Of a DNA stretch of 55,346 nucleotides, positions 1-44,258 are shown in pieces. This DNA is from Malacoraja senta (taxonomy: Eukaryota): the NCBI GenBank assembly GCA_038087875.1, contig JAXLNO010002087.1, positions 62,001 to 117,346 on the forward strand, written 5' to 3'. Under the pieces are notes generated by a model. That model did not search any database and had not been told where the DNA came from. It worked only from the letters and a program-made list of their open reading frames with translations. A program made the translations under genes and the position numbers. The stretch's first letter is position 1. Every line of letters starts with the position of its first letter.

Positions 1-42
1 GTTTGGTGGGGAATGGAATGAGATGAGTTAAGACAAGCTGAT

Positions 43-339
43 TTAAACTTTAGCGATATAGAGTGGAAACTGGCCTTTCAGCCCACCGAGACCACACCGA
101 CCAGCGATCACCCCGTACGCTAGCACTACCCTACGCACTAGGGACAATTTACAAATGTTCCAAAGCCAATTAACCTTGAAAACCTGCAGGTCTGTGGCGT
201 GTGGGAGGAAACCGGAGCACCCGGAGAAAACCCACGCTGTCACAGGAAGAAAGTACAGGCAGCATCCCCGGTCAGGATTGACCCAGGGTCTCTGGCGCTG
301 TAAGGCAGCAACTCCATCGCTGCGCCACCGTGCCGCCCA
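43..339 (-). mobile_element. tRNA-derived V-type SINE (HE1-like)
   Basis: Minus strand reads GGGCGGCACGGTGGCGCAGCGATGGAGTTGCTGCC (tRNA-like head), V-domain GGGTTTTCTCCGGGTGCTCCGGTTTCCTCCCACA and a (TAAA)n-like tail; many sister copies in window. Confidence 0.85.
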
Positions 340-449
340 AATAGTTGCACATCAGATTAGACAAGTTAGGAAGAAGAACGTGTCCAACATTGTAGATTCA
401 ATTGCGGAGTTCAATTACTTCAGGCATATATAAATGCTAGGCGCCGCTG

Positions 450-1617
450 TTATAACCATATAACCATATAACAATTCCAACAATTTTGGCTGTTGAGTAG
501 AACAACTACTCGTGAATAAAAAACTGCTGTGACAGTCCGGAGTCGCCTTCCAGAGGGTAGTGATTGAAATAGTTTGTGGCCAGGGTGAGAGGGGTCAGAG
601 ATGATCTTGCCCGCTCGCTTCCTGGCCCTTGCAGTGTACAGTTCATCAATGGAGGGAAGGTTGCAGCCAATAACCTTCTCTGATGATCGGACGATTCGCT
701 GCAGCCTCCAGGTGTCGTGCTTGGTGACTGAGCCAAACCAGACCATGATGGGGATGGTGAGAACAGACTCTACGATGGTCGTGTAGAATTGGACCATCAT
801 TGCCTGTGGCAGATTGTGTTTCCTCAGCTGCCGCAGGAAGTACATCATCTGTTGTGCCTGTTTGACTGTGGAGTCCATGGTAGCCCCCCACTTATGGTCC
901 TTGGAGATGATGGTTCCCAGGAACTTAAAAGATTCCACAGATGTGACTGTGGTGTTGTTGATGGTGAGTGGGGTGAGGGGAGGGGGAGCTCTCCTAAAGT
1001 CTACAATCAATTCCACTGTCTTAAGAGAATTGAGCTCCAGGTTGTTGCTACGGCACCAGGACGCCAGCTGTGACACTTGCTGTCTGTAGGCCGATTGCTC
1101 CCCATCCTGGATCAGTCCAATCAGGGTTGTGTTGTCCGCAAACTTGAGAAGCTTGACTGAAAGAGGTGAAGTCGTTGGTGTAGAGAGCGTAGAGGAGAGG
1201 AGAGAGTACGCAGCCTTGCGGTGCTCCTATGCTGAGTGTTACGGGTCCCAGATGTACTTTCCCAGCCAAAGTAAGTCAAATGGGCACTGGTGGGTGAAGA
1301 GTTGTAAACTAAGACCCTTGGACAGGTGAGTGGACAAGACAGGTTTAGAGGGGGCAATGGACACAAGTGTGTGGGCCTTTGGTACCTTCTCAAGATGGCG
1401 TCATGAACGGCGGGACCTTAACAAGATGGCCGCCGGCATCCGACCAATCAACGGCGCCGACCTCACATGTCCTCACCAGGATGGCCGCCACCAACCCCTC
1501 ACAAAGATGGCCGCCAGCATCCGACCAATCAGCGGCGCCGATCTCACCTGCCCTCACCACGATGGCCGCCGACATCCGACCAATCAACGGCGCCGACCTC
1601 ACCAAGATGGCCGCCAA
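450..1617 (-). mobile_element. Internally deleted non-autonomous Rex1/Babar-type LINE (5' region fused to C-terminal RT)
   Basis: ORFs 1048-1269 ([17 protein letters not shown]) and 450-1076 (LELNSLKTVELIVDFRR...DPSHPGHKLF..LPSGRR) are Rex1/Babar RT C-terminus; 5' part is shared with the copies at 10176 and 35662. Confidence 0.85.
1391..1617. repeat. Tandem array of 26-55 bp units each beginning CAAGATGGCCGCC, most with CCAATCA
   Basis: Units of 55, 26, 55 and 45 nt read directly from the sequence. Confidence 0.85.
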
Positions 1618-6098: not shown

Positions 6099-9000
6099 AT
6101 AGAAGGTACACAAAAATGCTGGAGAAACTCAGCGGGTGCAGCAGCATCTATGGAGCGAAGGAAATAGGCAACGTTTCGGGCCGAAACCCTTCTTCAGACT
6201 GATGGGGGGTGGGGAGAAGAAAGGAAAAAAGGAAAAAGGCGGAGGAGGAGCCTGAGGGCTGGTGGAGGGGAGGAGACAACCAGAGGGATGACGAAGGGGA
6301 GGGGACAGCAAGGGCTAGCAGAATTGGGAGAATTCAATGTTCAAGCCCCCAGGATGTAGACTGCCCAAGCGGAATATGAGGTGCATTTCCTCCAATTTAC
6401 GGTGTTGCTCGCTGTGGCCATGGAGGAGCCCCAGGGCAGAGAGGTCAGATACGGAATGGGAGGGGGAGTTGAAGTGCTGAGCCACCGGGAGGTCAAGTTG
6501 GTTATTGCGGACCGACCGGAGGTGTTCAGCGAAACGATCGCCAAGCCTCCGCTTGGTCTCACCGATGTAGATCAGCTGGCATCTAGAGCAGCGGATGCAA
6601 TAGATGAGGTTGGAGGAGATGCAGGTGAACCTCTGTCGCACCTGGAACGACTGCTTGGGTCCTTGAATGGAGTCGAGGGGGGAGGTGAAGGGACAAGTGT
6701 TGCATCTCTTGCGGTTGCAAGGGAAAGTACCAGGGGAGGGGGTGGTACGGGAGGGAAGGGAAGAATTGACAAGGGAGTTACGGAGGGAGCGGTCTTTGCG
6801 GAAGGCAGACATGGGGGGAGATGGGAAGATGTGGCGAGTGGTGGGGTCACGTTGGAGGTGGCGAAACTGACGGAGGATCACTTGTTGTATGTGACGGCTG
6901 GTGGGGTGAAAGGTGAGGACTAGGGGGACTCTGCCCTTGTTGTGAGTGGGGGAATGGGGAGAGAGAGCAGTGTTGCGGGGTATGGCAGAGACCATGGTGC
7001 GAGCCTCATCTATGGTGGAGGAGGGGAACCCCCGTTCCCTGAAGAATGAGGACATTTCAGATGCCCTGGTGTGGAACGCCTCATCCTGGGAGCAGATGCG
7101 GCGTAGACGGAGGAATTGGGAGTGGGGGATGGAGTCCTTACAGGAAGCAGGGTGGGAAGAAGTGTAGTCCAGATAGCCATGGGAGTCGGTGCGTTTGTAG
7201 TGGATGTCGGTAAGGAGTCTATCACCTTCGATGGAGATAGTGAGGTCAAGGAATGGTAGGGAAGTGTCGTAAATGGTCCAGGTGTATTTGAGTGCCGGAT
7301 GGAAGTTGGTGGTGAAGCGGATGAAGTCAGTCAGTTGTGTGTGGGTGCAGGAGGTGGCACCAAAACAGTCATCGATGTAGCGGAGGTAGAGGTCGGGGAT
7401 GGGGCCCTGGTACGCATTGAACAAGGATTGTTCTACGTACCCGACAAAGAGGCAGGCGTAGCTGGGGCCCATGCGTGTGCCCATAGCTACGTCTTGTATT
7501 TGGAGGAAATGGGAGGAGTCAAATGAAAAGTTATTAAGGGTAAGGACCAGCTCCGCTAGGCGGAGGAGGGTGTCAGTGGCAGGGTATATGTTGCTTCTAC
7601 GGTCGAGGAAAAAACGGAGGGCTTCGAGACCATCCTGGTGGGGGATGGAGGTGTACAATGACTGGACGTCCATGGTGAAGATGAGGGGGTGAGGGCCTAG
7701 AGAGTGGAATGCGCGGAGATGACGGAGAGTGTCTGAGGTGTCTTGAACATAGGTAGGGAGGGATTTAACCAAGGGGGATAGGATGGAGTCGAGATAGGTG
7801 GAGATGAGTTCGGTGGGGCATGAACAGGCAGAGACAATGGGTCTACCGGGACAGTCAGGTTTGTGGATTTTGGGGAGAATGTAAAATCGGGCCGTGTGGG
7901 GCTGGGGAACGATGAGGTTGGAGGCTCGGTCGGGCAGGGCATGGGAGTGGATGAAGTCGGTGATGGTGCTGGAGATGGTGGCCTGGTGCTCGTCAGTGGG
8001 GTCATGGTCCAGGGGTAAGTAGGAGGAGGTGTCCGAGAGTTGGCGCGTGGCCTCAGCTTTGTAGAGATCGACGCGCCAGACTACCACGGCACCTCCCTTG
8101 TCGGCGGGTTTGATAACCCAATCTAGGTTGTTGCGGAGTGAGTCGATGGCAGTGCGTTCAGGGGGGGAGAGATTGGAGTGAGACAGGGGAGTGGAGAAGT
8201 TGAGGCGGTTGATGTCACGGCGGCAGTTTTGAACGAAGAGTTCTAAAGCCGGAACGCTACGAGGGGGGTTCCATGAGGATGGGGTGCGTTGGAGACGGGA
8301 AAAGGGGTCATCAGTGGGGAGCGAGTACTCCTTCCCATGGAAGTGAGCTGTGAGGCGGAGGCGACGGTAGAAGCGTTCCAAGTCATGGAGGGCGCGGAAC
8401 TCATTGAGATGGGGACGGAGGGGGACAAAGGTAAGACCTCTGCTGAGGACAGACCGTTCGATGTCGGAGAGGGGGAGGTCGGGGGGGATGGTGAACACCC
8501 GGCAGGGATGGGGGTTGGGGCCAGAGGAAGGCAGGTGGGTGGAATGGGGATGAGGCGATGTGTGGTGGGGGGGTGGTGGGTGGTCAGGGGGTGGGGGGGT
8601 GAGAGGGCAGTGGTGTGGGTGTGGAAGAGAAGTGGTCCCATAGTTGGAGAGGGATGGGGAAGAATCAGTGGAACTGCCACTGAGATAACCAGGGCTAGGC
8701 AGACTAGCGCTAGGACCCAGTGGAGTCAAACCCAGGAGAGTGGGAGTGAGCAGCGTGGAGGCTTCAGGCCCAGTACAGAGTCCAGTTTGCAGGTGAGGCG
8801 ACGGCTGCGGGCTGCTGGAGGGAGGTGCAGTGGCGAGGATCGGCGGACCCGATGGTCGGGGTCCTCGGGCAGTGGAGTCGGGGTCCACGGGCGATGCGTG
8901 GGAGGTCCCGGTGGGCGGATGGTCGGTGGGGCGGCGCGGTTCGACCAGCCCGGTGAGGCGACGGGGTGAGTAGGGTGCGGTGCGGCGGCCATGTTCAGGG

Positions 9001-10175
9001 AGCCCCGGTCCGGCGGTCGTGTAGAGTAGGTCCGGTCCGGCGGCGATGCTGGATGGGCCCGGTCCGGCGGCGATGTTGGGAGGACCGGGTGCGGCTGTGA
9101 TGTTCGGCGGGCCCAGTGCGACGGCGATGTTGGATGGGCCCGGTGCGGCGATGATGTTGGGCGGTCCCGGGGGGCGGCGAGATTCGGAGGAATCGGCGAG
9201 GGGAAGGAAGTCTGAGTTACCGTAGAAGCGGCGAGGCTGGGCGTCATCGGTAGGCAGGTGAAGGTCGGCGGCAGCATCGACGTGGAGGTCGGTGAAGGCG
9301 GCGTCCTGGTGAGTACTGGAGGCGCTCCCCGTGGACAAGATGGCGTCCTGGTGAGTAGTGGAGGCGCTCCTCGTGGACAAGATGGCGTCGCGGGTCTCGG
9401 GCAGGCAATGTAGGCCGGAGTTGGGGCCCGGAGCCTGCGGGCGGTCGAGTCGCGGAGAGTCGGCGGCGGGAGCGGCCTGGAGGCGGGCTAATTTAAGGTC
9501 CTTGGTGGAGTTGAGGTGGGCCAGGAATCTTTTATTGAAGAGGTGGATCTTCCGGCGGATAAAGTATAGTTGAGGACCGTTGCAGGTCTGGGTGAGTGCG
9601 GCCCGAAGTTCCGGGAGGGTCAATGCAAGGTCCTGCTGGTGTCGGCGCATCGCAGTCAGAGTGGATCTAAGTGCCCGGGTGGAGAATTGTTGGGTATGCC
9701 GGTAGATAGCCAGTCGGTACCGATAGTGCGGCAGGGGTCCGAACTGGGAAGTAGGGAACTGGAGCTGGAAGCCATGAGGTATGAGATGGAGGCGCAGGCA
9801 TGCCCCGAGGAAGCAGATGTGGCTGTGGTATCGAGTTTGGGTAAGGATGTGGTCGTAGAGTTGGAGGGCAGGGGGGATCACAGAGATGGGGCAGTTAGAG
9901 AGTTGGTTGTGGAACAGTCTCCAGAGAGAGGAGGAGAACTTCTTCAGAGTAGGCATACCTTGACGAGATTTCGCAGTGGAGTAGACAAAGTGTTAAAGAA
10001 GGAACTGCAGATGCTGGAAAATCGAAGGTACACAAAAATGCTGGAGAAACTCAGCGGGTGCAGCAGCATCTATGGAGCGAAGGAAATAGGTAACGTTTCG
10101 GGCCGAAACGTTACCTATTTCCTTCGCTCCATAGATGCTGCTGCACCCGCTGAGTTTCTCCAGCATTTTTGTTTA
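6099..10175 (-). mobile_element. Penelope-like element (probably Neptune clade) with direct 3' pLTR and inverted 5' pLTR
   Basis: pLTR at ~6099-6200, same repeat as a hairpin at ~10014-10175 centred on GTAACGTTTCGGGCCGAAACGTTAC; long ORF between. Confidence 0.92.
6315..9956 (-). CDS. Penelope-like retroelement polyprotein: RT plus GIY-YIG endonuclease, 1213 aa
   Basis: IKPADKGGAVVV, PGRPIVS, FTMDVQSLYTSI, AMGTRMGPSYA, YLRYIDD, Cys linker CNRKRCNTC, LIYIGETKRRLGDRFAEH; no stop or frameshift. Confidence 0.93.
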   Translation of the reverse strand: MPTLKKFSSSLWRLFHNQLSNCPISVIPPALQLYDHILTQTRYHSHICFLGACLRLHLIPHGFQLQFPTSQFGPLPHYRYRLAIYRHTQQFSTRALRSTLTAMRRHQQDLALTLPELRAALTQTCNGPQLYFIRRKIHLFNKRFLAHLNSTKDLKLARLQAAPAADSPRLDRPQAPGPNSGLHCLPETRDAILSTRSASTTHQDAILSTGSASSTHQDAAFTDLHVDAAADLHLPTDDAQPRRFYGNSDFLPLADSSESRRPPGPPNIIAAPGPSNIAVALGPPNITAAPGPPNIAAGPGPSSIAAGPDLLYTTAGPGLPEHGRRTAPYSPRRLTGLVEPRRPTDHPPTGTSHASPVDPDSTARGPRPSGPPILATAPPSSSPQPSPHLQTGLCTGPEASTLLTPTLLGLTPLGPSASLPSPGYLSGSSTDSSPSLSNYGTTSLPHPHHCPLTPPPPDHPPPPHHTSPHPHSTHLPSSGPNPHPCRVFTIPPDLPLSDIERSVLSRGLTFVPLRPHLNEFRALHDLERFYRRLRLTAHFHGKEYSLPTDDPFSRLQRTPSSWNPPRSVPALELFVQNCRRDINRLNFSTPLSHSNLSPPERTAIDSLRNNLDWVIKPADKGGAVVVWRVDLYKAEATRQLSDTSSYLPLDHDPTDEHQATISSTITDFIHSHALPDRASNLIVPQPHTARFYILPKIHKPDCPGRPIVSACSCPTELISTYLDSILSPLVKSLPTYVQDTSDTLRHLRAFHSLGPHPLIFTMDVQSLYTSIPHQDGLEALRFFLDRRSNIYPATDTLLRLAELVLTLNNFSFDSSHFLQIQDVAMGTRMGPSYACLFVGYVEQSLFNAYQGPIPDLYLRYIDDCFGATSCTHTQLTDFIRFTTNFHPALKYTWTIYDTSLPFLDLTISIEGDRLLTDIHYKRTDSHGYLDYTSSHPASCKDSIPHSQFLRLRRICSQDEAFHTRASEMSSFFRERGFPSSTIDEARTMVSAIPRNTALSPHSPTHNKGRVPLVLTFHPTSRHIQQVILRQFRHLQRDPTTRHIFPSPPMSAFRKDRSLRNSLVNSSLPSRTTPSPGTFPCNRKRCNTCPFTSPLDSIQGPKQSFQVRQRFTCISSNLIYCIRCSRCQLIYIGETKRRLGDRFAEHLRSVRNNQLDLPVAQHFNSPSHSVSDLSALGLLHGHSEQHRKLEEMHLIFRLGSLHPGGLNIEFSQFC

Positions 10176-14585: not shown

Positions 14586-15474
14586 AGGGGGGTTGCACGT
14601 AAGGTCACTGGGTCATAGGGCTTGACGCACGGAGCCGCTCAATCCATCTGGAGGACATACGTAACTTCCGGTATATGTTATTAATGCAAGAAACGCGTAC
14701 TTTCGTACCTGTTAAAAACCGCAAAATGTTGAATTTTTTCGCTGTAAATAATTGTGGAAGTCGGGGTAACCGTGAGAGACATCTATCCTACTTCAGAATT
14801 CCAAAAGTGAAGCGAAATGAAGGTAAAGAGAAGCGAGAGCTGAAGGGACAACAGCAGCTAAAGTGCTTGGCGGACATTGGCCGTGCAGATATCGGAATTG
14901 AAAATATTGGGAATTATCGCGTTTGCTCACTGCATTTTATCAATGGCAAGGCATTATTTGGGTTTTTTCTTGAATCCTTTGGTGTCTAAAAAGTCTCAGA
15001 AGTGATAAATCTGGTTGTAAATTTTGCTTCAGAGGCGTTTACTTTTTGCCACTTGAGAACCATGGGCGATTTAAAAATTTTACAGCCAGATTTATCCCTT
15101 CTGAAACTTTTTAGATGCCAAAGGTATCAAGAAAAAACACAAATGATGCCTTAGTTGATGAAATGCAGTGAGCAAACGGCCAATGTTCGCCAAGCACTTT
15201 GGCTGTTGTTGTCCCTTCAGCTCTCGCTTCTATCTACCGTCATGTCTCCTCACTTTTTGAATTCTGAAGTTGGCTAAATGTCTCTCACGCTTATCCCGAT
15301 TTCCATAATTATTTACAGCGCAAAAATTGACCATTTCGGCGGGTTTTAACCGGCCCGCTACGCTGGAAACAATGGTAAGTGCTTGCCTACATTACATCGC
15401 GTGTAATCCATTTGGCATAGCGTAGCAACAGTACGGGTCATGGGGTCGTGACCCGACTGCCGTGAAACATCCCT
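14586..15474. mobile_element. Non-autonomous THAP-domain DNA transposon (ISL2EU/Harbinger-like), fold-back structure
   Basis: Ends AGGGGGGTTGCACG / CGTGAAACATCCCT flanked by AT on both sides; THAP-like ORF 14675-14989 (F.AVNNCGS...YFRIPK...YRVCSLHF); inverted second THAP copy at ~15140-15325. Confidence 0.7.
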
Positions 15475-28140: not shown

Positions 28141-28315
28141 CTCCAACTAGCTTCATTGTCCTGTGAAACGTCACCTATCCATGTTCTACACAGATGCTGC
28201 CTGACCCGCTGAGTTACTCCAGCAATCTGTGAAACGTCACCTACCCATGTTCTCCACAGATGCTGCCTGACCCGCTGAGTTACTCCAGCACTCCGTGAAA
28301 TGTCATCTATCCATG

Positions 28316-29930
28316 TTATAACCATATAACCATATAACAATTACAGCACGGAAACATGCCATCTCGGCCCTTCTAGTCCGTGCCGAACACTTATTTTCCC
28401 CTAGTCCCATCTACCTGCACTCAGACCATGACCCTCCATTCCTTTCCCATCCATATACCTATCCAATTTATTTTTAAGTGATAAAATCGAACCTGCCTCC
28501 ACCACTTCCACTGGAAGCTCATTCCGCACAGCTACCACTCTCTGAGTAAAGGAGTTCCCCCTCATGTTACCCCTAATCTTCTGTTCCTTAATTCTCAAGT
28601 CATGTCCTCTTGTTTGAATCTTCCCTACTCTCAATGGGAAAAGCTTATCCACGTCAACTCTGTCTATCCCTCTCATCATTTAAAGACCTCTATCAAGTCC
28701 CCCTTAACGTTCTGCGTTCCAAAGAATAAAGACCTAACTTGTTCGACCTTTCTCTGTAACTTAGTTGTTGAAACTCAGGCAACATTCTAGTAAACCTCCT
28801 CTGTACTCCCTCTATTTTGTTGACATCCTCCCTATAATTAGCCGACCAAAATTGTACACCATACTCCAGAATTGGCCTCACCAATGCCTTGTACAATTTT
28901 AACATTCCATTCCAGCTTCTATACTCAATGCTCTGATTTATGAAGGCCAGCACACCAAAAGCTTTCTTTCCCACCCTATTTACATGAGATTCCACCTTCA
29001 GGGAACTATGCACAGTTATTCCTAGATCCCTCTGTTCAACTGCATTGCTCAATTCGCTACCATTTACCATGTACGTCCTATTTTGATTTGTCCTGCCAAG
29101 ATGTAGCACCTCACACTTATCTGCATTAAACTCCATCTGCTATCTTTCAGCCGACTCTTCCAAATGGCCTAAATATCTCTGTAGACTTTGAAAATCGACT
29201 TCATTATCCGCAACACCACCTATCTTAGTATCATCTGCATACTTACTAATCCAATTTACCACACCACCATCCAGATCATTAATGTAGATGACAAACAACA
29301 GTGGACCCAACACAGATCCCTGAGGCACCCCACTAGTCACCGGCCTCCAACCTGACAAACAGCCATCCACCATTACTCTCTGGCATCTCCCATTCAGCCA
29401 CTGTTGAATCCATCTTGCTACTCCACCATTAATACCCAACCATTGAACTTTCTTAACCAACCCTCCATGAGGAACCTTGTCAAAGGCCTTACTGAAGTCC
29501 ATATAGACAACATCCACTGCTTTACCCTCATCAATTTCCCCAGTAACCTTTTCAAAAAATTCAAGATTAGTCAAACATGACCTTCCAGGCACAAATCCAT
29601 GTTGACTGTTCCTAATCAGATCCTGTAGATCCAGATGCTTATATATATTATCTCTAAGTATCCTTTCCATTAATTTGCCCACCACTGACGTCAAACTAAC
29701 AGGTCTATAATTGCTAGGTTTACTCTTAGAACCCTTTTAATACAATGGAACAACATGCGCAGTACGCCATCCTCCGGCACTATTCCCGTTTCTAATGGCA
29801 TTTGAAATATTTCTGTCATAGCCCCTGCTATTTCTACACTAACTTCCCTCAAGACTTATCCACTTTTATATATTTTTTAAAGTGTCAGTACTTCCTCTTC
29901 TTTTAATCTCATAGTTTCCATAGCTTTTCT
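28316..29930 (-). mobile_element. CR1 LINE fragment of a second subfamily, (ATGGTTAT)n tail
   Basis: ORFs 29140-29694 (DFSKAFDKV, QGSVLGP, KYADD), 28693-29136 and 28401-28679. Confidence 0.9.
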
Positions 29931-31016
29931 ACTTGTTTCCCTTACCTCACATAATTCAATATCCTTCTCCAGAGATGTTCTCCAGAGATGCTCCCTAACA
30001 TTTGTCGTTTCAGGTCAGGACCCTTCCGGTTTGAGTGGGCCAGTGGAGTAGAGAAGCCAAGGCATTTGTTGCACCAACAGTGGATATAAAAAGGTCCAGA
30101 GAGGGTAGAAGGGTGGGTAGGGGGAGAGGCGGGGGGGGGGGGGGGGATGTTGAAGACTGGAGACAGGATTGTCACTGGATGGATAGGATTCTCTCCCATA
30201 AAGAAAAGCTCAGAGGTGGCAGTAGAGCCCTACGTCCCTATGTTCCCAATGTAGGGAGTCCAGAACCAGGGGGTCACAGTTTAAGAATAAGACTCGCTGA
30301 GTCACTCCACCTTTTATCTTGGTCTATTAATGGATTCAAATCTACCTTAGATCTCCTTTTATCATCCTGCTTGGCACTCTCCACCGGCATTTTTGATACA
30401 GGTTCCTTTGTTTCTAAATACATAGAGTGAATTTTAAAGCTCTGATCTGTTCAATATCTCGCAAACTGTGAACCCACTTCAAGTTTATGGATGGAATGGA
30501 GCCCGTCCGTCTCTCATGGTTACGGATGCAGTTCATTGTGATGTCGCCGGCCAGGCACATTATGAGGTCACCTCTGATTATGATGGTTTACAAACTTGCG
30601 ATCTTATGAATGGAAGGCCGGCCCAGAAGGGAATAAACCACTTCACCATATGACCACAGGTCACAGTGGTTATAACCAACTGGACTCAAGTGTTAGATAC
30701 AAGGAACTCAGTTCAATTGAGTTTATTGTCACGTGTACGGAGAAATGCTTTTTGTCGCATGTTAAAAACAGTTAGCAGAAAGACATTGCATGATTACAAT
30801 CGAGCCATTTGCAATGTATAGATACATGGTAAAGGAATAACGTTTAGTGCAAGGTAAAGCCAGCAAGGATAGTCCGAGGGTCACCAATGAGGTAGATAGT
30901 AGTTCAGAACTGCTCTCTGGTTGTGGTAGGATGCTTTAGTTGCCTGGTAACAGCTGGGAAGAAACTGTCCCTGAATCTGGAGGTGTGCGTTTTCACACTC
31001 CTGTACCTTTCCTAAT

Positions 31017-35212: not shown

Positions 35213-36852
35213 GTTTGGTGGGGAAGGGAATGAGATGAGTTAAGACAAGCTGATTTAAACTTTAGCGATATAGAGTGGAAACTGGCCTTTCGGCCCACCG
35301 AGACCACACCGACCAGCGATCACCCCGTACGCTAGCACTACCCTGCGCACTAGGGACAATTTACAAATTTTCCAAAGCCAATTAACCTTGAAAACCTGCA
35401 GGTCTGTGGCGTGTGGGAGAAAACCGGAGCACCCGGAGAAAACCCACGCTGTCACAGGAAGAAAGTACAGGCAGCATCCCCGGTCAGGATTGACCCAGGG
35501 TCTCTGGCGCTGTAAGGCAGCAACTCCATCGCTGCGCCACCGTGCCGCCCAAATAGTTGCACATCAGATTAGACAAGTTAGGAAGAAGAACGTGTCCAAC
35601 ATTGTAGATTCAATTGCGGAGTTCAATTACTTCAGGCATATATAAATGCTAGGCGCCGCTGTTATAACCATATAACCATATAACAATTACAACAATTTTG
35701 GTTGTTGAGTAGAGCAACTACTCGTGAATAAAAAACTGCTGTGACAGTCCGGAGACGCCTTCCAGAGGGTAGTGATTTAAATAGTTTGTGGCCAGGGTGA
35801 GAGGGGTCAGAGATGATCTTACCCGCTCGCTTCCTGGCCCTTGCAGTGTACAGTTCATCAATGGAGGGAAGGTTGCAGCCAATAACCTTCTCTGCTGATC
35901 GGACTATTCGCTGCAGCCTCCAGGTGTCGTGCTTGGTGACTGAGCCAAACCAGACCATGATGGGGATGGTGAGAACAGACTCTACGATGGTCGTGTAGAA
36001 TTGGACCATCATTGCCTGTGGCAGATTGTGTTTCCTCAGCTGCCGCAGGAAGTACATCATCTGTTGTGCCTGTTTGACTGTGGAGTCCATGGTAGCCCCC
36101 CACTTATGGTCCTTGGAGATGATGGTTCCCAGGAACTTAAAAGATTCCACAGATGTGACTGTGGTGTTGTTGATGGTGAGTGGGGTGAGGGGAGGGGGAG
36201 CTCTCCTAAAGTCTACAATCAATTCCACTGTCTTAAGAGAATTGAGCTCCAGGTTGTTGCTACGGCACCAGGACGCCAGCTGTGACACTTGATGTCTGTA
36301 GGCCGATTCCTCCCCATCCTGGATCAGTCCAATCAGGGTTGTGTTGTCCGCAAACTTGAGAAGCTTGACTGACAGAGGTGAAGTCGTTGGTGTAGAGAGC
36401 GTAGAGGAGAGGAGAAAGTACGCAGCCTTGCGGTGCTCCTATGCTGAGTGTTTACGGGTCCCAGATGTACTTTCCCAGCCAAAGTAAGTCAAATGAGCAC
36501 TGGTGGGTGAAGAGTTGTAAACTAAGACCCTTGGACAGGTGAGTGGACAAGACAGGTTTAGAGGGGACAATGGACACAAGTGTGTGGGCCTTTGGTACCT
36601 TCTCAAGATGGCGTCTTGAACGGCGGGACCTTAACAAGATGGCCGCCGGCATCCGACCAATCATCGGCGCCGACCTCACATGCCCTCACCAGGATGGCCG
36701 CCATCAACCCCTCACAAAGATGGCCGCCGGCATCCGACCAATCAGCGGTGGCGATCTCACCTGCCCTCACCAAGATGGCCACCGACATCCGACCAATCAG
36801 TGGCGCTGACCTCACCACGATGGCCGCCATCAACCCCTCATAAAGATGGCCG
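35213..36852. repeat. Segmental duplicate of positions 1-1617 (spacer + SINE + spacer + Rex element)
   Basis: Near-identical sequence including the unique spacer AAATAGTTGCACATCAGATTAGAC...; 208-aa ORFs 450-1076 and 35662-36288 differ at few residues. Confidence 0.95.
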
Positions 36853-36927
36853 ATGGAACTCTGCCACAGAAGGGATCAGGGGGTACGGAGAGAAGGCAGG
36901 TACAGGATACTGAGTTGGATGATCAGC

Positions 36928-37455
36928 TGTGAGAAAGGGGTTAATAGGTATAAGTTGATTTAGACAAGAACCCTTTGTATAGTAGGGAGGATAGGGGGAG
37001 TGAAGGACGAGTACAGATGGTGACTTTTTCAAGGATGAGAACAGAGAAGATAGCAACAGCCCAGCCAAGAACAGGGGTAAGGGTCAGGAGAAACACTCTG
37101 TGCGCATGGGCAATGAACTTACATGAATATGTACACACACCCACTATGACAAGATGTCTCATTTAAATGCACATGCGATGCATGATATGGGAGGTGTCTT
37201 TTACGTCGGGTGGACGTTCCAGGACGTTCTCGTGGGAATGTGGGCTTTATGTTATGATTGGAAGAAGCACAATGGGGAGGGATGAGGGTGTGACAATGAT
37301 ACCCATGAAATGTATAAAGATAGAAGTCATCCCGATCCTCGGTGTGCCTCTAGGGGACATCAGAGGAGAGGCACCTATTCTGCAGAATATGATTTGAATA
37401 AAAAGCTTCTTTGCCGACTTTGTCTCTAAAAGCGTTTGTGATTTTGAATCTCACA
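36928..37455 (+). promoter_or_regulatory. ERV-B 5' LTR
   Basis: TG...CA termini, TATAAA at ~37314, AATAAA at ~37397; repeated at 42520-43063. Confidence 0.9.
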
Positions 37456-37460
37456 ATTTT

Positions 37461-37479
37461 TGGGGGCTCGTCTCGGGAC
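37461..37479 (+). promoter_or_regulatory. Primer-binding site, tRNA-Pro type
   Basis: TGGGGGCTCGTCTCGGGA versus canonical Pro PBS TGGGGGCTCGTCCGGGAT, 5 nt after the LTR. Confidence 0.8.
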
Positions 37480-40220
37480 CCCCACTCCGGCTGGCTGACG
37501 ACGGTATACAGAAGAAGGGACGGTGCACCCCGTTGATTTTAACGGTCCCAGACCCCTAGATTGCCGTCAGCGGTTTGGGCGAGTGGTATCCCTGAACAGA
37601 GACTCAGCAAAGAAGTGGGAGTAGTTGGAAATCCGATCGGGAGGAAGATCGGGGGAAATTCGCGAAGGAGCCAAATCGAGTGATTCTTGTGTACAGGACC
37701 CGGGTAAGAAAACTGACTATTAAGTACTACTCGGGCGATTGGGATAAGACCTTGTGGATACCGCCCTGAAGAATTCAGGGGTCTGTACGGGCAAGGCAGG
37801 AAAATGGCGGGAAAATAGATCAGGGGGAAATTCCGATCGGGAGGATGGGCCATGAGAACGGAAAGCCCACCAGGGAGGGGAAGGGCGGTAAGCCCGACAC
37901 CAGCATTCTGCCTGATAGTCCGTTGGGGCGAATGCTGAGCCTCTGGGGGCAGGGAAATACCCAGGGAATTGGAGGACAAAAATGATTGAGCCTCTGAGGG
38001 CAGAGAAATACCCAGGGAATTGGAGAAGACAAAAATGATTTGATTCTGTTATTTTGAGTTTTAATACATGTAAAAGATGTTGCATTTATTTGAAGTAAGA
38101 ATGGAACGAATGTGATTTGTGTGTAAAAACTGGTTTGGAATGAAAGAAGAAGTTTATATATGTGATAATTATTTTGTTTATTGTATTTGTAGACCACATT
38201 GGAAGAGTAAGTAAGTACGTTTTATTAAAATCAAAAATGTTCACTGTAGGTAGGTGTATGTTCCTTTAAATAAATCAGGTCATGGTGAAAGGCGCCGAAC
38301 AGCTGTAAGATAACGATTAATGTTTGTATCCTTGTAAGAAGGGGAAGTTGTGAAACCAGCTTTTGGTTTTTCTGATGTTCTTTTAGATTTCTAGTCAGTA
38401 AAGATAATTTGGAAAATTGTTACTAGTGCTAGGAATTGGACATTTAAAATAGTGGTGAATATGGATTGAAATAATTGGAAATAAGTTAATTGGTAAACAT
38501 TCAAGTTTAGAAAGAAAGGAGAGAGAGGCAGTTAGAAGATAACAGAAGTAGAAAAACGACAGGCGTGAAAGCAATAAAGCAGGAGGAGTCAGTGGAAGAT
38601 TTTTGCAAGGAGGCTAGAATATTTGAGAAGCAAGAAATTGAGTTTAGAATTAGAAAGAAGGCATACCAGAAAGGATTAAAGTTGGAAGCATTGGGATAAA
38701 GTGATGAGACTGTTTTAAAGAGAAAAGAGAAGGACAGACACAGATTATCCCTTGGGGCACCCATAAACTGAAAGGGCTAAAAAATACCTCACCCTATATC
38801 CCTGATGGGGGAGGAAATGGATTAGGGCTTTGGAGGAGGAGAACGTGGGACGATTATTGATCATGGAAGATTTGAAGGCACTGTTGGTAAAAGTGATAGG
38901 AACCACTAAAGTGACAGAACTACTGAAGATGGATGGTATAAACTGATGCGAACAATGTAACAAGCAATGGCATACTGTTTGACACAGTCAGGCAGAGGGT
39001 ATGGCAGACCCTCAGACAATGTTACCCACTTAAGAGGAACCCCAAGGAACAAGGGGAGATACAGAAGGAAAGGCAAATAGCCTATCTGGAAAACCAGCTG
39101 AAAAGGTGGAGAGTTGATTGATGAACATTATATTATGAACTACTGTGGTGGATGTCATTCTTCTTAAAGTCAAGCAGATTCAGCGAACAGTTGGTCTCTG
39201 CGGTCGAGAAATATCGCAAAGATAGGAAAAAGATTTGCAAACCAGCAGGAGGAGGTGTTGTCAATAAACAATGGACCTAAGTGAGTCCTATGACGGAACC
39301 AAGCAGGGCCAGAGAATTACATGCCAATAATGAATGTCTTTGGGGTACGTTTCCTCAAAAAGTCCTATCAGGAGTGAAATTAATCTGGATATAAGCCTTA
39401 ACAGGACTGGGGTCCCCAAGAGAGAAAGGGATTTAAAGGAGGATTTGTTGGTATTGTTCCATAAGTAACAAGCGATGTAAGAGAGAGAGAGAGAGAATTA
39501 AAAAAAATACTTCAGAATGTAGGACAGAGTATGATAACCTCGGGAAAAGGCAGGATATAGTTCAGACTAGATTAGGTATAAGCCCTGTAGTGTCGTTTAT
39601 GATGAATAAGGTAATTAAGAGGTTTGGTAGACGTACAGAAATCAGCTTTGACAACGGATTGTTTTCATTTAGGGAGTAGCTAAGTTGGCGATAGAGACCC
39701 TTAGAGTAAAATACACATTTGGGTATGTAACACCTGCAGTCACAGGCATGGTGGAAAGAATAAATGGAACATTGAAGGTTAATATAAATAAGATTTGTTT
39801 AATTACAAAGTTGAATGGGATCGATGACCTGCCATTGGCACTGAAGAGATGTTGCATGCAAACTAACCGAGCAGGTGGCACAATGGAGAGGTCCCTACAA
39901 GAGACCGAGTTTGGAACAGTTAAAGATAGAATTTAAAAAGTATATGAAACAGTTAATTATGATATACAAGTCTATTTATGAACAGGAAAAGTAAAAGCTG
40001 TTGGAGGTGGACCAGGAGGAAGGACCCTTTAAACCTGAAGACAAGGTGTATGTATGAGTTTTCTAAACTACCGACCGATGTTCAGGTAGAAGGTTGATAT
40101 ACCTGGTACCATTTCAATAATACCTGAGGGCTGTCCCGCAGGTACGAATAGATAATAGCCCTGAGGTAAGTGAACAGGAGGACAAGAGATGTGAGAAAAG
40201 AGTAGAGTTTGAACAAGAAC

Positions 40221-41180
40221 GTTGTTTGACATCAGTGGTGGGCAAAATAATGGAAAGCATACTTAAGACAATATAAGAATTTGGATAAATAGGGTAGGAT
40301 TAGGAAGAATTAGCATGGATTTGTGATTGTGATGTTTGACTAATCTTGAATTTTTTGAAAAGGTTATTAGGGAAATTGATGAGGGTAAAGTGATGGATGT
40401 TGTCTAGATGAACTTCAGTAAGGCCTTTGACAAGGTTCAATAAGGAAATAAGGTTGGTTAAGAAGGGTTAGTAAGGAATAGCAAGATGGATTAAAAAGTG
40501 GCTGTATGGGAGATGTCAGAGAGCAATGGTGGATGGATGTTTGTCAGGTTGGAGGTCAGTGACTAGAGGGGTACCTCGGGGATGTGTGTTGGGTCCACTG
40601 TTGTTTGTCATGTGAATCAATAATCTGGATGTTGGTGTGGTAAAATAGATTAATAAGTATGTAGATGATAATAAGATAGGTGGTGTTGTGAATAATGAAG
40701 TAGATTTTAAAAAGTGTACAGAGAGATTTAGGTCATTTGGAAGAATGGGTTGAAACATGACAGATGGGTTTAATGTTGATAAGTGTGAGGTGATACATCT
40801 TGGCAGGACAAATCAAAATTGAATGTACATGGTAAATGATTGTGAATTGAGGAATGAAGTTGAATAGAGGGATCTAGGAATAACTGTGCATGGTTCCCTG
40901 AAGGTGGAATTTCATGAAGATAGGATGGTAAAGAAAGATTTTGGTGTGTTGGCCTTTATAAATCAGAGCATTGTGTATAGAAGTTGGGTTGTAATGTTAA
41001 ATTGTACAAGGTATTGGTGAGGTCAATTGTGGAGTATGGTGTATAATTTTGGTAGGCATAATTATAGGAAGGATGTCAACAAAATAGAGAGAGTACAGAG
41101 GAGATCAATTAGAATGTTGACTGGGTTTCAGCAACTAAGACACAGAGAAAGGTTGAACAAGTTAGGTCTTTATTATTTAG
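40221..41180 (+). mobile_element. Tail-less, heavily C-depleted CR1 RT fragment inside ERV-B
   Basis: Aligns to the reverse complement of 28760-29700 (GACTAATCTTGAATTTTTTGAAAAGGTT, CTTCAGTAAGGCCTTTGACAAGGTTC, GGGTCCACTGTTGTTTGTCAT). Confidence 0.9.
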
Positions 41181-42500
41181 GAACGATAGAAGGGGTCCCA
41201 ACAAATACAAGGGAATGATGTATTCCTAAGGAACTATTTACTGGCAGTATCTCGTTCTCTTACAGAATTAAGAACCATGGGGCTGCTGGCACAGAGTCCC
41301 CATCTCGACTTTCCAATCCATTCTGTGAAAGCGAGGGACTGGGATCTTGTAACATCATGGAAGGAAGAAAAGCTGCAACCTAAGTGGACTGGACCCTACC
41401 TGGTGTTACTAATCACCGAGACAGCAGTACGAACAAAAGAAAAAGGGTGGACACACGCAAGCCGATTTAAGGGTCCTGTGGAGGCCCCACCAAACAATAT
41501 CAGCCCGTGGACTGTGCGCAAAGGAGAGGAACCATTGACTTTAATATTTAACAAGAACCCGCGGGAAAAATGAAGATTTCGTGTTGGTGGGTCGTGTGTT
41601 GGGTGGTTACCCAACTATGTAAGCATACAGAGTGTTCAAATGCAGGAAAGTGGAAGGATGTGCAGATAGAACAGGGAGAATGAGCCTAAGGATTTGAAGA
41701 TAATGATAGTAGCAGGAGAAACAGAATTAAGGCAATTATATGAGGAGGGAATACCTACAGGAGGGAAGGGAGCCAACACCTGGCTTGCCTGGATGATGTA
41801 CACGGCCAGGAGTATGCAACACACCAATTGCTACGCCTGTGCCGGAGCTAAGCCTCAGCTGGTTCCAGAACCATTTCCCTTGAATTGGGATAGGACACCT
41901 GGGGCTATGTCATGTATACTACAGCTATTCACGAATCCCATCCTACCAAAGGATGCGACCTGCCAGAGTTATCATTACCTACTCCCGGCTAGCAACAACA
42001 ATACAAAGGGCCGAAGGACAGACCCTTCGACACACACATATATATAGATGCGATAGGGGTGCCAAGAGGGGTACCCGATGAATTCAAAGCCAGAAACCAG
42101 ATAGCTGCGGGCTTTGAGTCCATACTCTTCTGGTGGTCCACACTTAATAAAAATGTGGACTGGATCAACTACCTATACTACAATCAACAACGCTTTATAA
42201 ATTACACTCGAGATGCGGTTGAAGGATTAGCGGAACAACTGACAGATACCAGCCTAATGGCCTGGCAAAATCGCATGGCCTTAGACATGCTACTGGCTGA
42301 GAAGGGAGGGGTGTGTGTAATGTTTGGGGAACAATGTTGCACCTTCATCCCCAACAACATTGCTCCTGATGGGTCAGTATCGAGAGCCCTAGCAGGTCTC
42401 ACCTCCCTGTCTATCGAATGAGAGGAAGATAGAGAGAGGCGAAGATTCTGCTGCTAGCATTAGAGAAGGGGCAGATAGTCTAAATCAAAGATTGCAGTAG
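41181..42500 (+). pseudogene. env: ERV-B integrase C-terminus and internally deleted env
   Basis: WKEEKLQPKWTGPYLVLLITETAVRT; env NTWLAWMMYTA...CYACA; YIDAIGVPRGVPDEFKARNQIAAGFES...WQNRMALDMLLAEKGGVCVMFGEQCC; furin site and membrane anchor missing. Confidence 0.88.
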
Positions 42501-42519
42501 CAATAGTAAAAGTGTGGAT

Positions 42520-43063
42520 TGTGAGAAAGGGGTTAATAGGTATAAGTTGATTTAGACAAGAACCCTTTGTATAGTAGGGAGTATAGTAGGGAGGATAGGG
42601 GGAGTGAAGGACAAGTACAGATGGTGACTTTTTCAAGGATGAGAACAGAGAAGATAAGGAGACCATCCAGGATAGAACTAGGGTAAAGGTCAGAAGAAAC
42701 ACTCTGTGCGCATGGGCAATGAACTTACATGAATATGTACACACACCCACTATGACAAGATGTCTCATTTAAATGCACATGCGATGCATGATATGGGAGG
42801 TGTCTTTGACGTCGGGTGGACGTTCCAGGACGTTCTCGTGGGAATGTGGGCTTTATGTTATGATTGGAAGAAGCACAATGGGGAGGGATGAGGGTGTGAC
42901 AATGATACCCATTAAATGTATAAAGATAGAAGTCATCCCGATCCTCGGTGTGCCTCCAGGGGACATCAGAGGAGAGGCACCTATTCTGCAGAATATGATT
43001 TTGAATTAAAAGCTTCTTTGCTGACTTTGTCTCTAAAAGCGTTTGTGATTTTTGAATCTCACA
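42520..43063 (+). promoter_or_regulatory. ERV-B 3' LTR
   Basis: Repeat of the 5' LTR; preceded by a degenerate purine tract AAAAGTGTGGAT. Confidence 0.9.
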
Positions 43064-43916
43064 ATGACCATGGCTGACGTTCCTCAGGCATCAACTCCTG
43101 TTCGGTGCCAGTTCCTCATTGCACTCAATTCTCCAATCTTTCAAAAGTTTAACTACCGCCATATTAAATACTTCCAATGATTTTGTCTTCACAAATCTCT
43201 GGCGCCAGAGAATGACCACACTCTGCAAAAAGAGATTTTGTAAACAAATGACTGGTCTCTTTTATCTCTTATTGAAGAGGAGTGAAAATACGGCCAAATT
43301 TAAGCTTGTCCCCTCCCCAATTGGCCCTCATTTTGTAACTTGTCAATTATTTATTATTGTCAATAATATGCCCTAGTGAAAAGATTTGCCGTTGGTATTA
43401 GTTTATTATTGTCACGTGAACTGTGATATAGTCAAAAGTTTTTTCTGTGTGTTATCCAATCAGATCATACTACACATGTGCAATCAAGCCATCCACAAGT
43501 AGAACAGTGCAAAGAGAAAACTACTCAGAGTGCAGAATATCGGGTTACAATATCATAGCATTACAGTTACAGAGAAAGTGCAGATCAAAAAGAGTTGCAA
43601 GGATCACAATGAGATTGGTTGGAAGATCAGGACAACATCTTATCTTACATGAGAATCATTCAGTAGTCCAATAACAGTGGGGAAGAAGCTGTTCCTGAAT
43701 TTAATGGTGCATACTTTCAAACGTTCTTGTGTACTGTCTTAACAGGGAGCATACAATCCCTTTTAAACCACGTGTTTTGTTGATGGTGCCGAAAGAGGCA
43801 AAATGGGGCAGATGTGGACAGTAACTTGGTTGTTGTAGTAGACTGAAGAATATTTTGTGGTGGGTGACTGTGCAAGTTTTACTGAAGATGAAAATAACCA
43901 TCTTACTGCCTTGTAG

Positions 43917-44183
43917 TTTCCCCTGAGGTCACTCTCGCTGCCTGCCCTGATGATCATTCAGTCCTGTACTGCACTGTGTTTGGATTTTACCCACCAGCCA
44001 TCAATGTCAGCTGGTTGCAGAATGGTCAACATGTCTCTGAGACGAAATCTTCTGGGGTCATACCCAACAACGATGGAACATATCATCTAAGGTCTGTCCT
44101 TGAGTATGATCCATATGATGGGAAACAGTATTCCTGTCATGTCAATCACAGCAGCCTGCCCGGTGGGAAGATCATCATCTGGG
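43917..44183 (+). CDS. Exon encoding a C1-set Ig domain, best matching MHC class I alpha3
   Basis: Acceptor TCTTACTGCCTTGTAG, donor GTAAG, phase 1-1, 267 bp: SPEVTLAACPDDHSVLYCTVFGFYPPAINVSWLQNG...SSGVIPNNDGTYHLRSVLEYDPYDGKQYSCHVNHSSLPGGKIIIW (C, GFYP, W, N.DGTY, YSC.V.H motifs). Confidence 0.85.
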
Positions 44184-44258
44184 GTAAGAACGTTAAATAT
44201 TCTTTCATAGATAATCATTATCTTCTGTTGTTTCCATTTTAATCATTGTGACTACATC

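What the first reader, a model, noticed from the sequence alone, without database searches (positions are those of the whole stretch)
38040..41180. Sharply bounded, strand-specific erasure of cytosine inside an otherwise young provirus
The LTRs, leader and 41181-42500 have normal composition, but 38040-41180 (gag, IN, env and CR1 remnants) is strongly C-poor on the viral sense strand. An internal control exists. Aligning 40479-40798 to its sister CR1 (reverse complement of 29101-29420, mostly open ORF) by hand, 19 of 37 C are changed (8 C>A, 7 C>T, 4 C>G) versus about 10 of 105 G. The changes are not confined to CpG, TpC or WRC contexts. This is the opposite polarity to APOBEC3 G>A editing, and richer in transversions than simple deamination. 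The left edge coincides with a 50-bp tandem duplication, a likely template-switch scar. ERV-A shows the same bias on the other chromosome strand. Hypothesis (inference): unconstrained passenger RNA accumulates a C-directed miscoding lesion over repeated retroviral cycles. 3-methylcytosine is known to give mainly C>T and C>A on bypass, and abasic sites are another candidate. That would be an undescribed antiretroviral or mutational process in cartilaginous fish.
Basis: partly seen in the sequence, partly recalled or inferred. Interest (0 to 1): 0.85.

Follow-up and report, generated by a model that had tools for sequence, protein, structure and literature searches.

The report
Cytosine erosion in a hitchhiking retrovirus
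A family of defective retroviral elements lost cytosines from its RNA-sense strand step by step as it was copied, likely through a bias in reverse transcription that resembles one seen in HIV, and its sharp edges are recombination joints.

Summary
The C loss is real. It is neither an artefact nor a one-off editing event.

The provirus (36928-43065) is one of at least 150 copies of a non-autonomous family. Its LTRs, leader, pol end and env come from helper retrovirus Y. Its C-poor core comes from a second clade, X, plus a captured CR1.

I found the intermediates in the genome: fuller X, deleted X, X carrying the same CR1, then this family. On all four internal branches, sense-strand C was lost 2.4 times as often as G (C>A vs G>T 3.6 times). 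Changes private to single copies are near-symmetric (0.95-1.18). Gains of C are only mildly lowered, which favours mutation over selection.

- The edges are microhomology junctions, not the 50-bp duplication.
- Most of the C-poverty is inherited (13% to 11% on the last branch; flanks 20-22%).
- Context matters (GC/TC hot, ACC/CCC cold).
- The bias is undetectable in the latest radiation.
- ERV-A does not support it.

HIV-1's unpaired RNA shows the same C>A over G>U asymmetry, so this is a new variant of known retroviral nucleotide pressure. The lesion is unresolved; 3-methylcytosine is not favoured.

The parts
36928..37457 (+). 5' LTR, helper-Y type
   Evidence: 93.8% to the 3' LTR including one divergent block and a 12-nt indel; matches helper loci L121-L130; C 0.158, G 0.283
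37458..38059 (+). Helper-Y leader and first gag codons, with a variable ~50-bp tandem duplication at about 37936-38040
   Evidence: 3 differences in 519 columns vs helpers; duplication present in 22 and absent in 15 of 37 loci covering it
38047..38057 (+). Left recombination junction: 11-nt microhomology between helper-Y gag and clade-X leader
   Evidence: pairwise views against L122 and L251
38058..38690 (+). Clade-X leader/5' gag remnant, natively AT-rich and C-poor
   Evidence: donor columns 16 C of 255; matches L251, L213, L215
38691..39450 (+). Clade-X gag remnant (zinc-knuckle-like motif near 38945-38990) and following fragments, multiply deleted
   Evidence: 85-87% to L211-L215; C lost 21/139 vs G 25/258 in the gag block
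39500..40218 (+). Clade-X integrase remnant
   Evidence: 56% aa to a Centropristis ERV Pol, about 49% aa to helper Y IN; C lost 26/113 vs G 16/186
40224..41180 (+). Captured CR1 ORF2 fragment, same junction as in parent family Xc
   Evidence: 85% to free CR1; L231-L250 carry the same IN-CR1 junction with C largely intact; C lost 34/97 vs G 21/272; even over codon positions 19/47, 20/37, 11/28
41174..41193 (+). Right recombination junction: imperfect microhomology between CR1 and helper-Y pol
   Evidence: CR1 match ends at 41193, helper match starts at 41174
41181..41616 (+). Y-clade integrase C-terminus, 87-88% to sampled helpers, open frame
   Evidence: MLVIN_C hit; changes 8/119, 9/119, 25/117 by codon position
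41617..42519 (+). Internally deleted helper-Y env
   Evidence: 7 differences in 820 columns vs helpers; TLV_coat hit
42520..43065 (+). 3' LTR, helper-Y type
28161..30000 (-).
   Evidence: 40 matches at 99-100%, 6068 candidates

Best explanation
The C-poor core is a passenger segment that lost sense-strand cytosines branch by branch in a lineage of non-coding retroviral elements, likely through a strand-polarised mutation bias of the retroviral copying cycle, and was then recombined into the ends of a different helper retrovirus. SHOWN: descent from clade X through deletion, CR1 capture and two microhomology junctions; C lost about 2.4 times as often as G on four internal branches, as C>T, C>A and C>G; near symmetry in changes private to single copies. 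INFERRED: the changes arise during replication, because the last branch carries 4-9% change at non-C bases and about a dozen deletions while the two families differ from their own column majorities by only about 2% and 1%. INFERRED, weaker: the step is reverse transcription, where the minus strand is copied once before host repair can act. Damaged or misinserted guanine opposite viral C would then be fixed as C>A or C>G, with C-to-U in the RNA adding C>T. I put about 0.3 on oxidised guanine as the source of the C>A part. Once coding constraint is gone, the sequence would drift toward a C-poor equilibrium (4-7% C).
For: Branch ratios of C to G loss are 2.38, 4.99, 2.17 and 2.57; pooled 2.38 (CI 2.0-2.8). 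C>A/G>T is 3.6, C>T/G>A 2.0, C>G/G>C 2.8.
Last branch with a stricter alignment: C 83/360, G 61/763; C>A 30 vs G>T 6.
Dose response inside Xc: variants in 1, 2 and 3+ copies give C 113, 47, 65 of 634 vs G 253, 61, 49 of 1354. It holds without CpG: 122/923 vs 158/1962.
Terminal controls: 133/1872 vs 225/3194 in 13 old X copies; ratios 0.95 and 1.14.
Gains of C are 0.75 of their mirror; selection alone would need about 0.3.
Helper Y also shows shared C>A 38/1357 vs G>T 18/2023.
HIV-1 precedent: C>A 0.575 vs G>U 0.084 (PMC3594280); the last branch gives 6.4.
C>A falls in the seven contexts named for 8-oxoG Signature 36 in PMC5478212: 24/195 vs 6/168, p=0.003.
Against: No bias is detectable among shared variants of the present family: 20/279 vs 50/720, ratio 1.03, CI 0.63-1.7. 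A looser polarised count that included one badly projected locus gave about 1.5.
Within Xc the excess sits in pol and CR1 (35/351 vs 24/825) and is absent from leader, gag and env (21/484 vs 40/951) and from the LTRs. A uniform copying error does not predict this unless those parts are constrained.
Singletons among 24 Xc copies are slightly C-biased (1.18, p=0.02).
The overall 12-rate correlation with HIV (0.77) is no better than that of the genomic control (0.82). Only the asymmetry ratio matches.
Oxidised guanine does not explain the C>T excess, and in yeast ssDNA 8-oxoG contributed little (PMC6527239).
In vitro RT second-strand errors are mostly at A or T templates (PMC6009661).
The four branches are polarised by column majority, not by a full model, and share some loci.
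Confidence: 0.65

Rival explanations
1. One reading: a cytosine-directed miscoding mark in the viral RNA (3-methylcytosine, abasic or similar) is misread by reverse transcriptase at a low rate in each cycle.
For: Polarity and cumulative pattern fit equally well. C>A makes up 44 of 113 C changes on the two cleanest branches vs 26 of 133 in terminal controls (p=0.001). 3meC yields C to A/G/T and forms in single strands (PMC8610418). A 3' T raises the rate (p=0.002).
Against: Chemical methylation of single strands should also hit A (1meA is noted in PMC8610418), yet A is the least changed base and A>T/T>A is 0.91. Changed C are not more unpaired than kept C in a local fold of one copy (0.245 vs 0.294, p=0.14).
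Confidence: 0.12
2. Transcription-linked damage on the DNA of active source copies: the displaced sense strand of a G-rich, highly transcribed provirus is damaged or deaminated at C and bypassed with errors, and only source copies pass this on.
For: It would also be confined to internal branches. [quoted passage not shown] Adjacent C losses are mildly clustered (29 vs 20 expected, p=0.007).
Against: The last branch is too long for genomic time: non-C change is 4-9% against family depths of about 2% and 1%. Other retroelements in this genome have C-rich four-fold sites (Penelope 0.55, L2-like 0.34). The yeast oxidative ssDNA motif cCca is cold here.
Confidence: 0.1
3. Selection on the non-autonomous RNA against cytosine or base pairing (export, packaging, or escape from sensing) fixes ordinary mutations that remove C.
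For: The bias differs by region and appears only on non-coding branches. A>C is below T>G on internal branches (0.62, p=0.04).
Against: T>C equals A>G (0.88, CI 0.61-1.27), and total C gains are 0.75 of mirror against about 0.3 expected. The low A>C/T>G ratio also occurs in the terminal control (0.63). Selection would not raise the C>A share or create KC contexts. CpG is not the target (ACG 1/9).
Confidence: 0.08
4. One or a few bursts of host deaminase editing (AID/APOBEC on the plus strand, with uracil excision and error-prone bypass).
For: C-centred changes of all three types; WRC 38/101 vs non-WRC 63/223.
Against: The bias recurs on four branches and grows with variant sharing. AC, half of WRC, is cold. 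The search found only APOBEC2-like and APOBEC4-like loci (intron-split AID may be missed). Known LTR editing is G>A on the sense strand (PMC4866542).
Confidence: 0.04
5. Assembly or base-calling artefact.
For: The window lies on a smaller contig with near-identical segmental copies.
Against: The same letters occur in dozens of independent insertions on both strands, including the largest contigs, and in independent public runs.
Confidence: 0.005

Closest known systems
Retroviral nucleotide pressure, HIV-1 unrestricted substitution matrix (PMC3594280; review PMC3511177)
   Same: C is the most mutable sense-strand base; C>A far exceeds G>U (6.8 in unpaired HIV RNA, 6.4 on the last branch here); drift to an A-rich, C-poor state.
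   Different: Here C>T exceeds G>A (1.6-2.0; HIV 0.88), C>G/G>C is higher (2.8-4.3; HIV 1.7), A>G and T>C are relatively rare, and the sequence is non-coding, so the drift is seen without protein constraint.
APOBEC3 DNA editing of LTR elements (PMC4866542)
   Same: Strand-specific mutation tied to the reverse-transcription route and inherited by descendant copies.
   Different: Opposite polarity, about half transversions, gradual over branches rather than clustered in single copies. That survey used C>T as its negative control; the passages I saw do not mention C>A or sharks.
8-oxoguanine signature SBS36/18 (PMC5478212)
   Same: C>A enriched at TCT, TCA, GCA, GCT and TCC.
   Different: That paper reports no transcriptional strand bias; the signature lacks the C>T and C>G excess; CCA and CCT are weak here (1/26, 1/28).
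3-methylcytosine mutagenesis in single-stranded DNA (PMC8610418)
   Same: C to A, G and T, strand-biased.
   Different: Shown with MMS in yeast lacking AlkB; no A-lesion excess here; not tested in RNA.
Non-autonomous ERV passengers such as VL30, ETn and oncogene-transducing defective retroviruses (recalled, no call)
   Same: Helper-dependent element with foreign internal sequence joined at microhomologies.
   Different: I recall no report of a polarised C-loss ladder in them; my searches did not target those families by name.

Membership tests
Non-autonomous class I (gamma/epsilon-like) ERV | Paired LTRs and many dispersed copies | tested here: met
   LTR pairs 97-100% in 8 of 10 copies tested, one 89%, one with no pair found
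Non-autonomous class I (gamma/epsilon-like) ERV | No RT of its own; a coding-competent relative with shared ends exists in the genome | tested here: met
   helpers with Gag_p30, RVT_1, RNase H, rve, MLVIN_C and TLV_coat; gag and pol in one frame across a stop
Non-autonomous class I (gamma/epsilon-like) ERV | Target-site duplication at this insertion | tested here: not met
   flanks of this copy do not match; other copies were not checked
APOBEC3-edited LTR element | G>A dominance on the sense strand | tested here: not met
   C>T/G>A 2.0, C>A/G>T 3.6
APOBEC3-edited LTR element | Changes concentrated in single hypermutated copies | tested here: not met
   C fraction 0.109-0.118 in 39 of 42 copies; spread over four branches
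AID-type mutagenesis | WRC hot spots | tested here: inconclusive
   38/101 vs 63/223, but AC is cold
Retroviral nucleotide pressure (HIV-like) | Sense-strand C>A far above G>T on replicating branches | tested here: met
Retroviral nucleotide pressure (HIV-like) | G>A as the top rate | tested here: not met
   C>T and C>A exceed G>A per site
Retroviral nucleotide pressure (HIV-like) | Bias measured per replication cycle | not testable with these tools
   needs an experiment
8-oxoG mutagenesis | C>A in Signature 36 contexts | tested here: met
   24/195 vs 6/168 using the seven contexts named in the text; the full 96-channel signature was not available
8-oxoG mutagenesis | Dependence on OGG1/MUTYH/MTH1 | not testable with these tools
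   needs an experiment
3-methylcytosine mutagenesis | Lesion present at C and removed by AlkB | not testable with these tools
   no RNA holder listed

The most novel reading that the evidence does not exclude
A host or particle-borne mutator specific to clade-X retroviral particles attacks viral C (or minus-strand G) in GC/TC contexts at a low rate each cycle, and stopped acting when the passenger moved to helper Y. This would be an undescribed, non-APOBEC3 antiretroviral mutagenesis in a basal vertebrate.
Probability: 0.13. Interest if true: 0.85.

Novelty: new variant of a known kind. Interest (0 to 1): 0.52.

Why it matters
Whether retroviral genomes are A-rich and C-poor because of mutation or selection is still debated (PMC3511177, passages). 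This genome holds a fossil series of non-coding passengers with relative order and built-in controls, so the 12 substitution rates of a replicating lineage can be read largely free of protein constraint, in a host where no APOBEC3-like expansion was detected. It suggests the C>A asymmetry seen in HIV is an old property of the retroviral cycle. It also offers a general method: compare shared with private variants in non-autonomous ERV families across vertebrates. Screens for ERV editing that treat sense-strand C>T as noise would not be looking for this signal.

Tried and rejected
- Progressive loss among present copies: not seen; C fraction is flat.
- Helper Y as parent of the core: rejected, about 49% aa in IN.
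- The 50-bp duplication as the edge: rejected.
- CR1 subfamily divergence as the cause: rejected; changes are even over codon positions, and free CR1 to Xc is only 5/132 C.
- Neighbour-templated slippage: the new base does not follow either neighbour.
- Tandem substitutions beside changed C: not clearly above those beside other changes (9/51 and 4/37 on one side).
- RNA structure dependence: none.
- A smooth 5'-to-3' gradient: weak on the last branch (p=0.017), but it falls within CR1 and is absent in env and LTR.
- Intermediates between Xc and the present family: none among 26 Xc loci; best sharing 7 of about 220 derived letters. L270 and L227 share more (27/271, 10/76); unexplained, possibly a projection artefact from unrelated CR1 in L270.
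- ERV-A: could not be polarised.
- Free CR1 and young X' copies: too few shared variants.
- No RNA holder listed; not evidence either way.
- Letters differing in runs X4 and X6 partly match Xc, so they do not show an intermediate.
- Earlier findings: two look-ups, nothing.
- Literature searches found no report of sense-strand C erosion in non-autonomous ERVs; the library lacks most subscription papers.
- The HIV rate figure of PMC5399928 was not readable as text or in its supplement.
- PMC4496919 could not resolve transversions.
- One context count was mistyped (9 for 6) and corrected.
Full report
OBSERVATION. The stretch 38040-41180 is C-poor on the + strand, at 7-15% per segment against 20-22% in the leader, pol end and env, with change-points near 37963-38018 and 41193. 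A genome search gave 81 matches from 40 scored candidates at 90-100% on both strands, and a protein search gave 150 of 150 scored matches at 94-100%. All 30 loci aligned share the same C losses, and contigs of four public runs carry the same letters. An artefact is excluded.

ANATOMY. A helper family, Y, has open gag, pol and env frames in the genome. The window matches it up to 38059 and again from 41174; between these only a weak IN match remains (about 49% aa). That IN remnant is 56% identical to a Centropristis ERV Pol. A search with that protein found a second clade, X, and the core is 84-88% identical to its deleted members L211-L215, here Xb. A search with one of these found family Xc, 7.5-kb elements with their own LTRs that carry the same CR1 at the same IN junction with most C intact. 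A tree places the present family in a supported clade with Xb on a long branch. The family shares 41 of 53 Xc-derived letters. The order is therefore fuller X, deleted Xb, CR1-bearing Xc, then the present family, which lost about a dozen further blocks relative to one Xc copy (some gaps may be split or copy-specific) and was joined to Y ends. The junctions are an 11-nt microhomology at 38047-38057 and an imperfect one at 41174-41193. The 50-bp duplication is absent from 15 of 37 loci that cover it. The sharp edges are thus recombination joints, and most of the C-poverty is inherited: 13.0% C in Xc columns and 11.2% now.

BRANCH SPECTRA. Changes were counted column by column. Segmental duplicates were dropped (7-8 family loci, plus one misprojected locus from then on).
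- Xa to Xb: C 34/343, G 22/529.
- Xb to Xc: C 26/488, G 10/937.
- Shared variants in Xc: C 112/634, G 110/1354.
- Xc to the present family: C 87/371, G 72/790; with 24 Xc copies and a stricter alignment, C 83/360, G 61/763, C>A 30, G>T 6.
The pooled ratio is 2.38 (2.0-2.8); C>A/G>T is 3.6, C>T/G>A 2.0 and C>G/G>C 2.8. Controls are private changes in 13 old X copies (C 7.1%, G 7.0%) and singletons in Xc and in the present family (0.95 and 1.14). With 24 Xc copies the singleton ratio is 1.18, p=0.02. Coding-constrained X branches show no net C loss. The C changes in CR1 are even over codon positions. Contexts on the last branch are GCT 12/22, TCT 12/26, GCC 7/20, GCA 10/38, ACC 0/23 and CCC 0/18. 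C>A is 24/167 after G or T against 6/196 after A or C.

RESULTS AGAINST A SIMPLE STORY. Shared variants in the present family are symmetric, 20/279 vs 50/720, so the bias is weak or absent since that radiation began. In Xc the excess lies in pol and CR1 and not in leader, gag, env or LTR. Helper Y has total C/G near 1.07 but still C>A 38/1357 vs G>T 18/2023. Those Y counts are polarised only by majority, and A>C is also common there (41). ERV-A is C-poor only in its 3' part and could not be polarised. No intermediates were found on the longest branch.

MECHANISM. Mutation is favoured over selection. Gains of C run at 0.75 of their mirror, with T>C/A>G 0.88, whereas selection strong enough for the losses would give about 0.3. 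Replication is favoured over damage in resident DNA. The last branch has 4-9% change at non-C bases while Xc and the present family lie about 2% and 1% from their column majorities, and other retroelements in this genome are C-rich at four-fold sites. Both points are inference. The chemical step is not shown. The minus strand is the one DNA template copied before nuclear repair (established knowledge, recalled), so a guanine lesion or analogue there appears as a sense-strand C change. The C>A contexts match those named for unrepaired 8-oxoG (24/195 vs 6/168). This does not explain the C>T excess, for which C-to-U in RNA or misinsertion at low dGTP are candidates (inference).

COMPARISON WITH WHAT IS KNOWN. 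HIV-1 unpaired RNA has C as the most mutable base, with C>A 0.575 vs G>U 0.084 (PMC3594280), a ratio of 6.8 against 6.4 here. It differs in having G>A at the top. The overall rate correlation is no better than for the genomic control, so only the asymmetry is shared. APOBEC3 editing has the opposite polarity (PMC4866542). Group-specific nucleotide biases of ERVs with unknown cause are also noted in PMC1224870.

PAPERS SEEN. Abstract, passages and section 9 part 1: PMC6527239. Passages only: PMC8610418, PMC5399928 (plus two supplement passages), PMC4496919, PMC6009661, PMC4866542, PMC5478212, PMC3594280, PMC3511177, PMC1224870. Listing only: PMC9303387. Figures and supplementary tables with full spectra were not seen and could change the signature comparisons. 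Ten searches found no report of this ladder.

VERDICT. This is a real, cumulative, strand-polarised mutational drift in a defective ERV lineage, and a new variant of known retroviral nucleotide pressure. It is valuable as a natural mutation-accumulation series. Interest 0.52. The chance of a distinct clade-specific mutator is about 0.13. The host's identity as a cartilaginous fish was not tested.

Noticed in passing
window 43898-44242 (+): Immunoglobulin C1-set exon (E 4.5e-20), MHC-like by recalled motif; the window region recurs as near-identical segmental copies on at least six other contigs.
   Followed up: partly
window 6315-9992 (-): Penelope-like element (label by recalled motifs) with an open 1225-aa frame and 55% C at four-fold sites, the opposite skew to CR1 and clade X.
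   Followed up: partly
window 28161-30000 (-) and other CR1 loci: Free CR1 lineages have only 5-13% C at four-fold sites, so an unrelated RT lineage is also C-poor on its sense strand; too few shared variants to test.
   Followed up: partly
L140 (G000:C5:82469700-82479699): Recombinant carrying the C-poor segment to 38725 followed by helper-Y gag/pol remnants, showing repeated exchange with the helper.
   Followed up: no
window 36916-36935 and 43056-43075: No target-site duplication and a divergent block between the two LTRs; this copy may join halves of two insertions.
   Followed up: no
window 1-1616 and 35213-36829: 98% identical 1.6-kb duplication directly upstream of the provirus.
   Followed up: no
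G000:C7:26192859-26217216: Five family matches spaced about 5.9 kb apart, apparently a tandem array sharing LTRs.
   Followed up: no
window 14708-15353: Imperfect self-complementary stretch of about 650 bases, 73% identity.
   Followed up: no
window 41181-41616: Y-derived IN end is 12% diverged from sampled helpers with C>A 5 and G>T 0, four of the five at first or second codon positions, while the adjacent env is 99%.
   Followed up: partly
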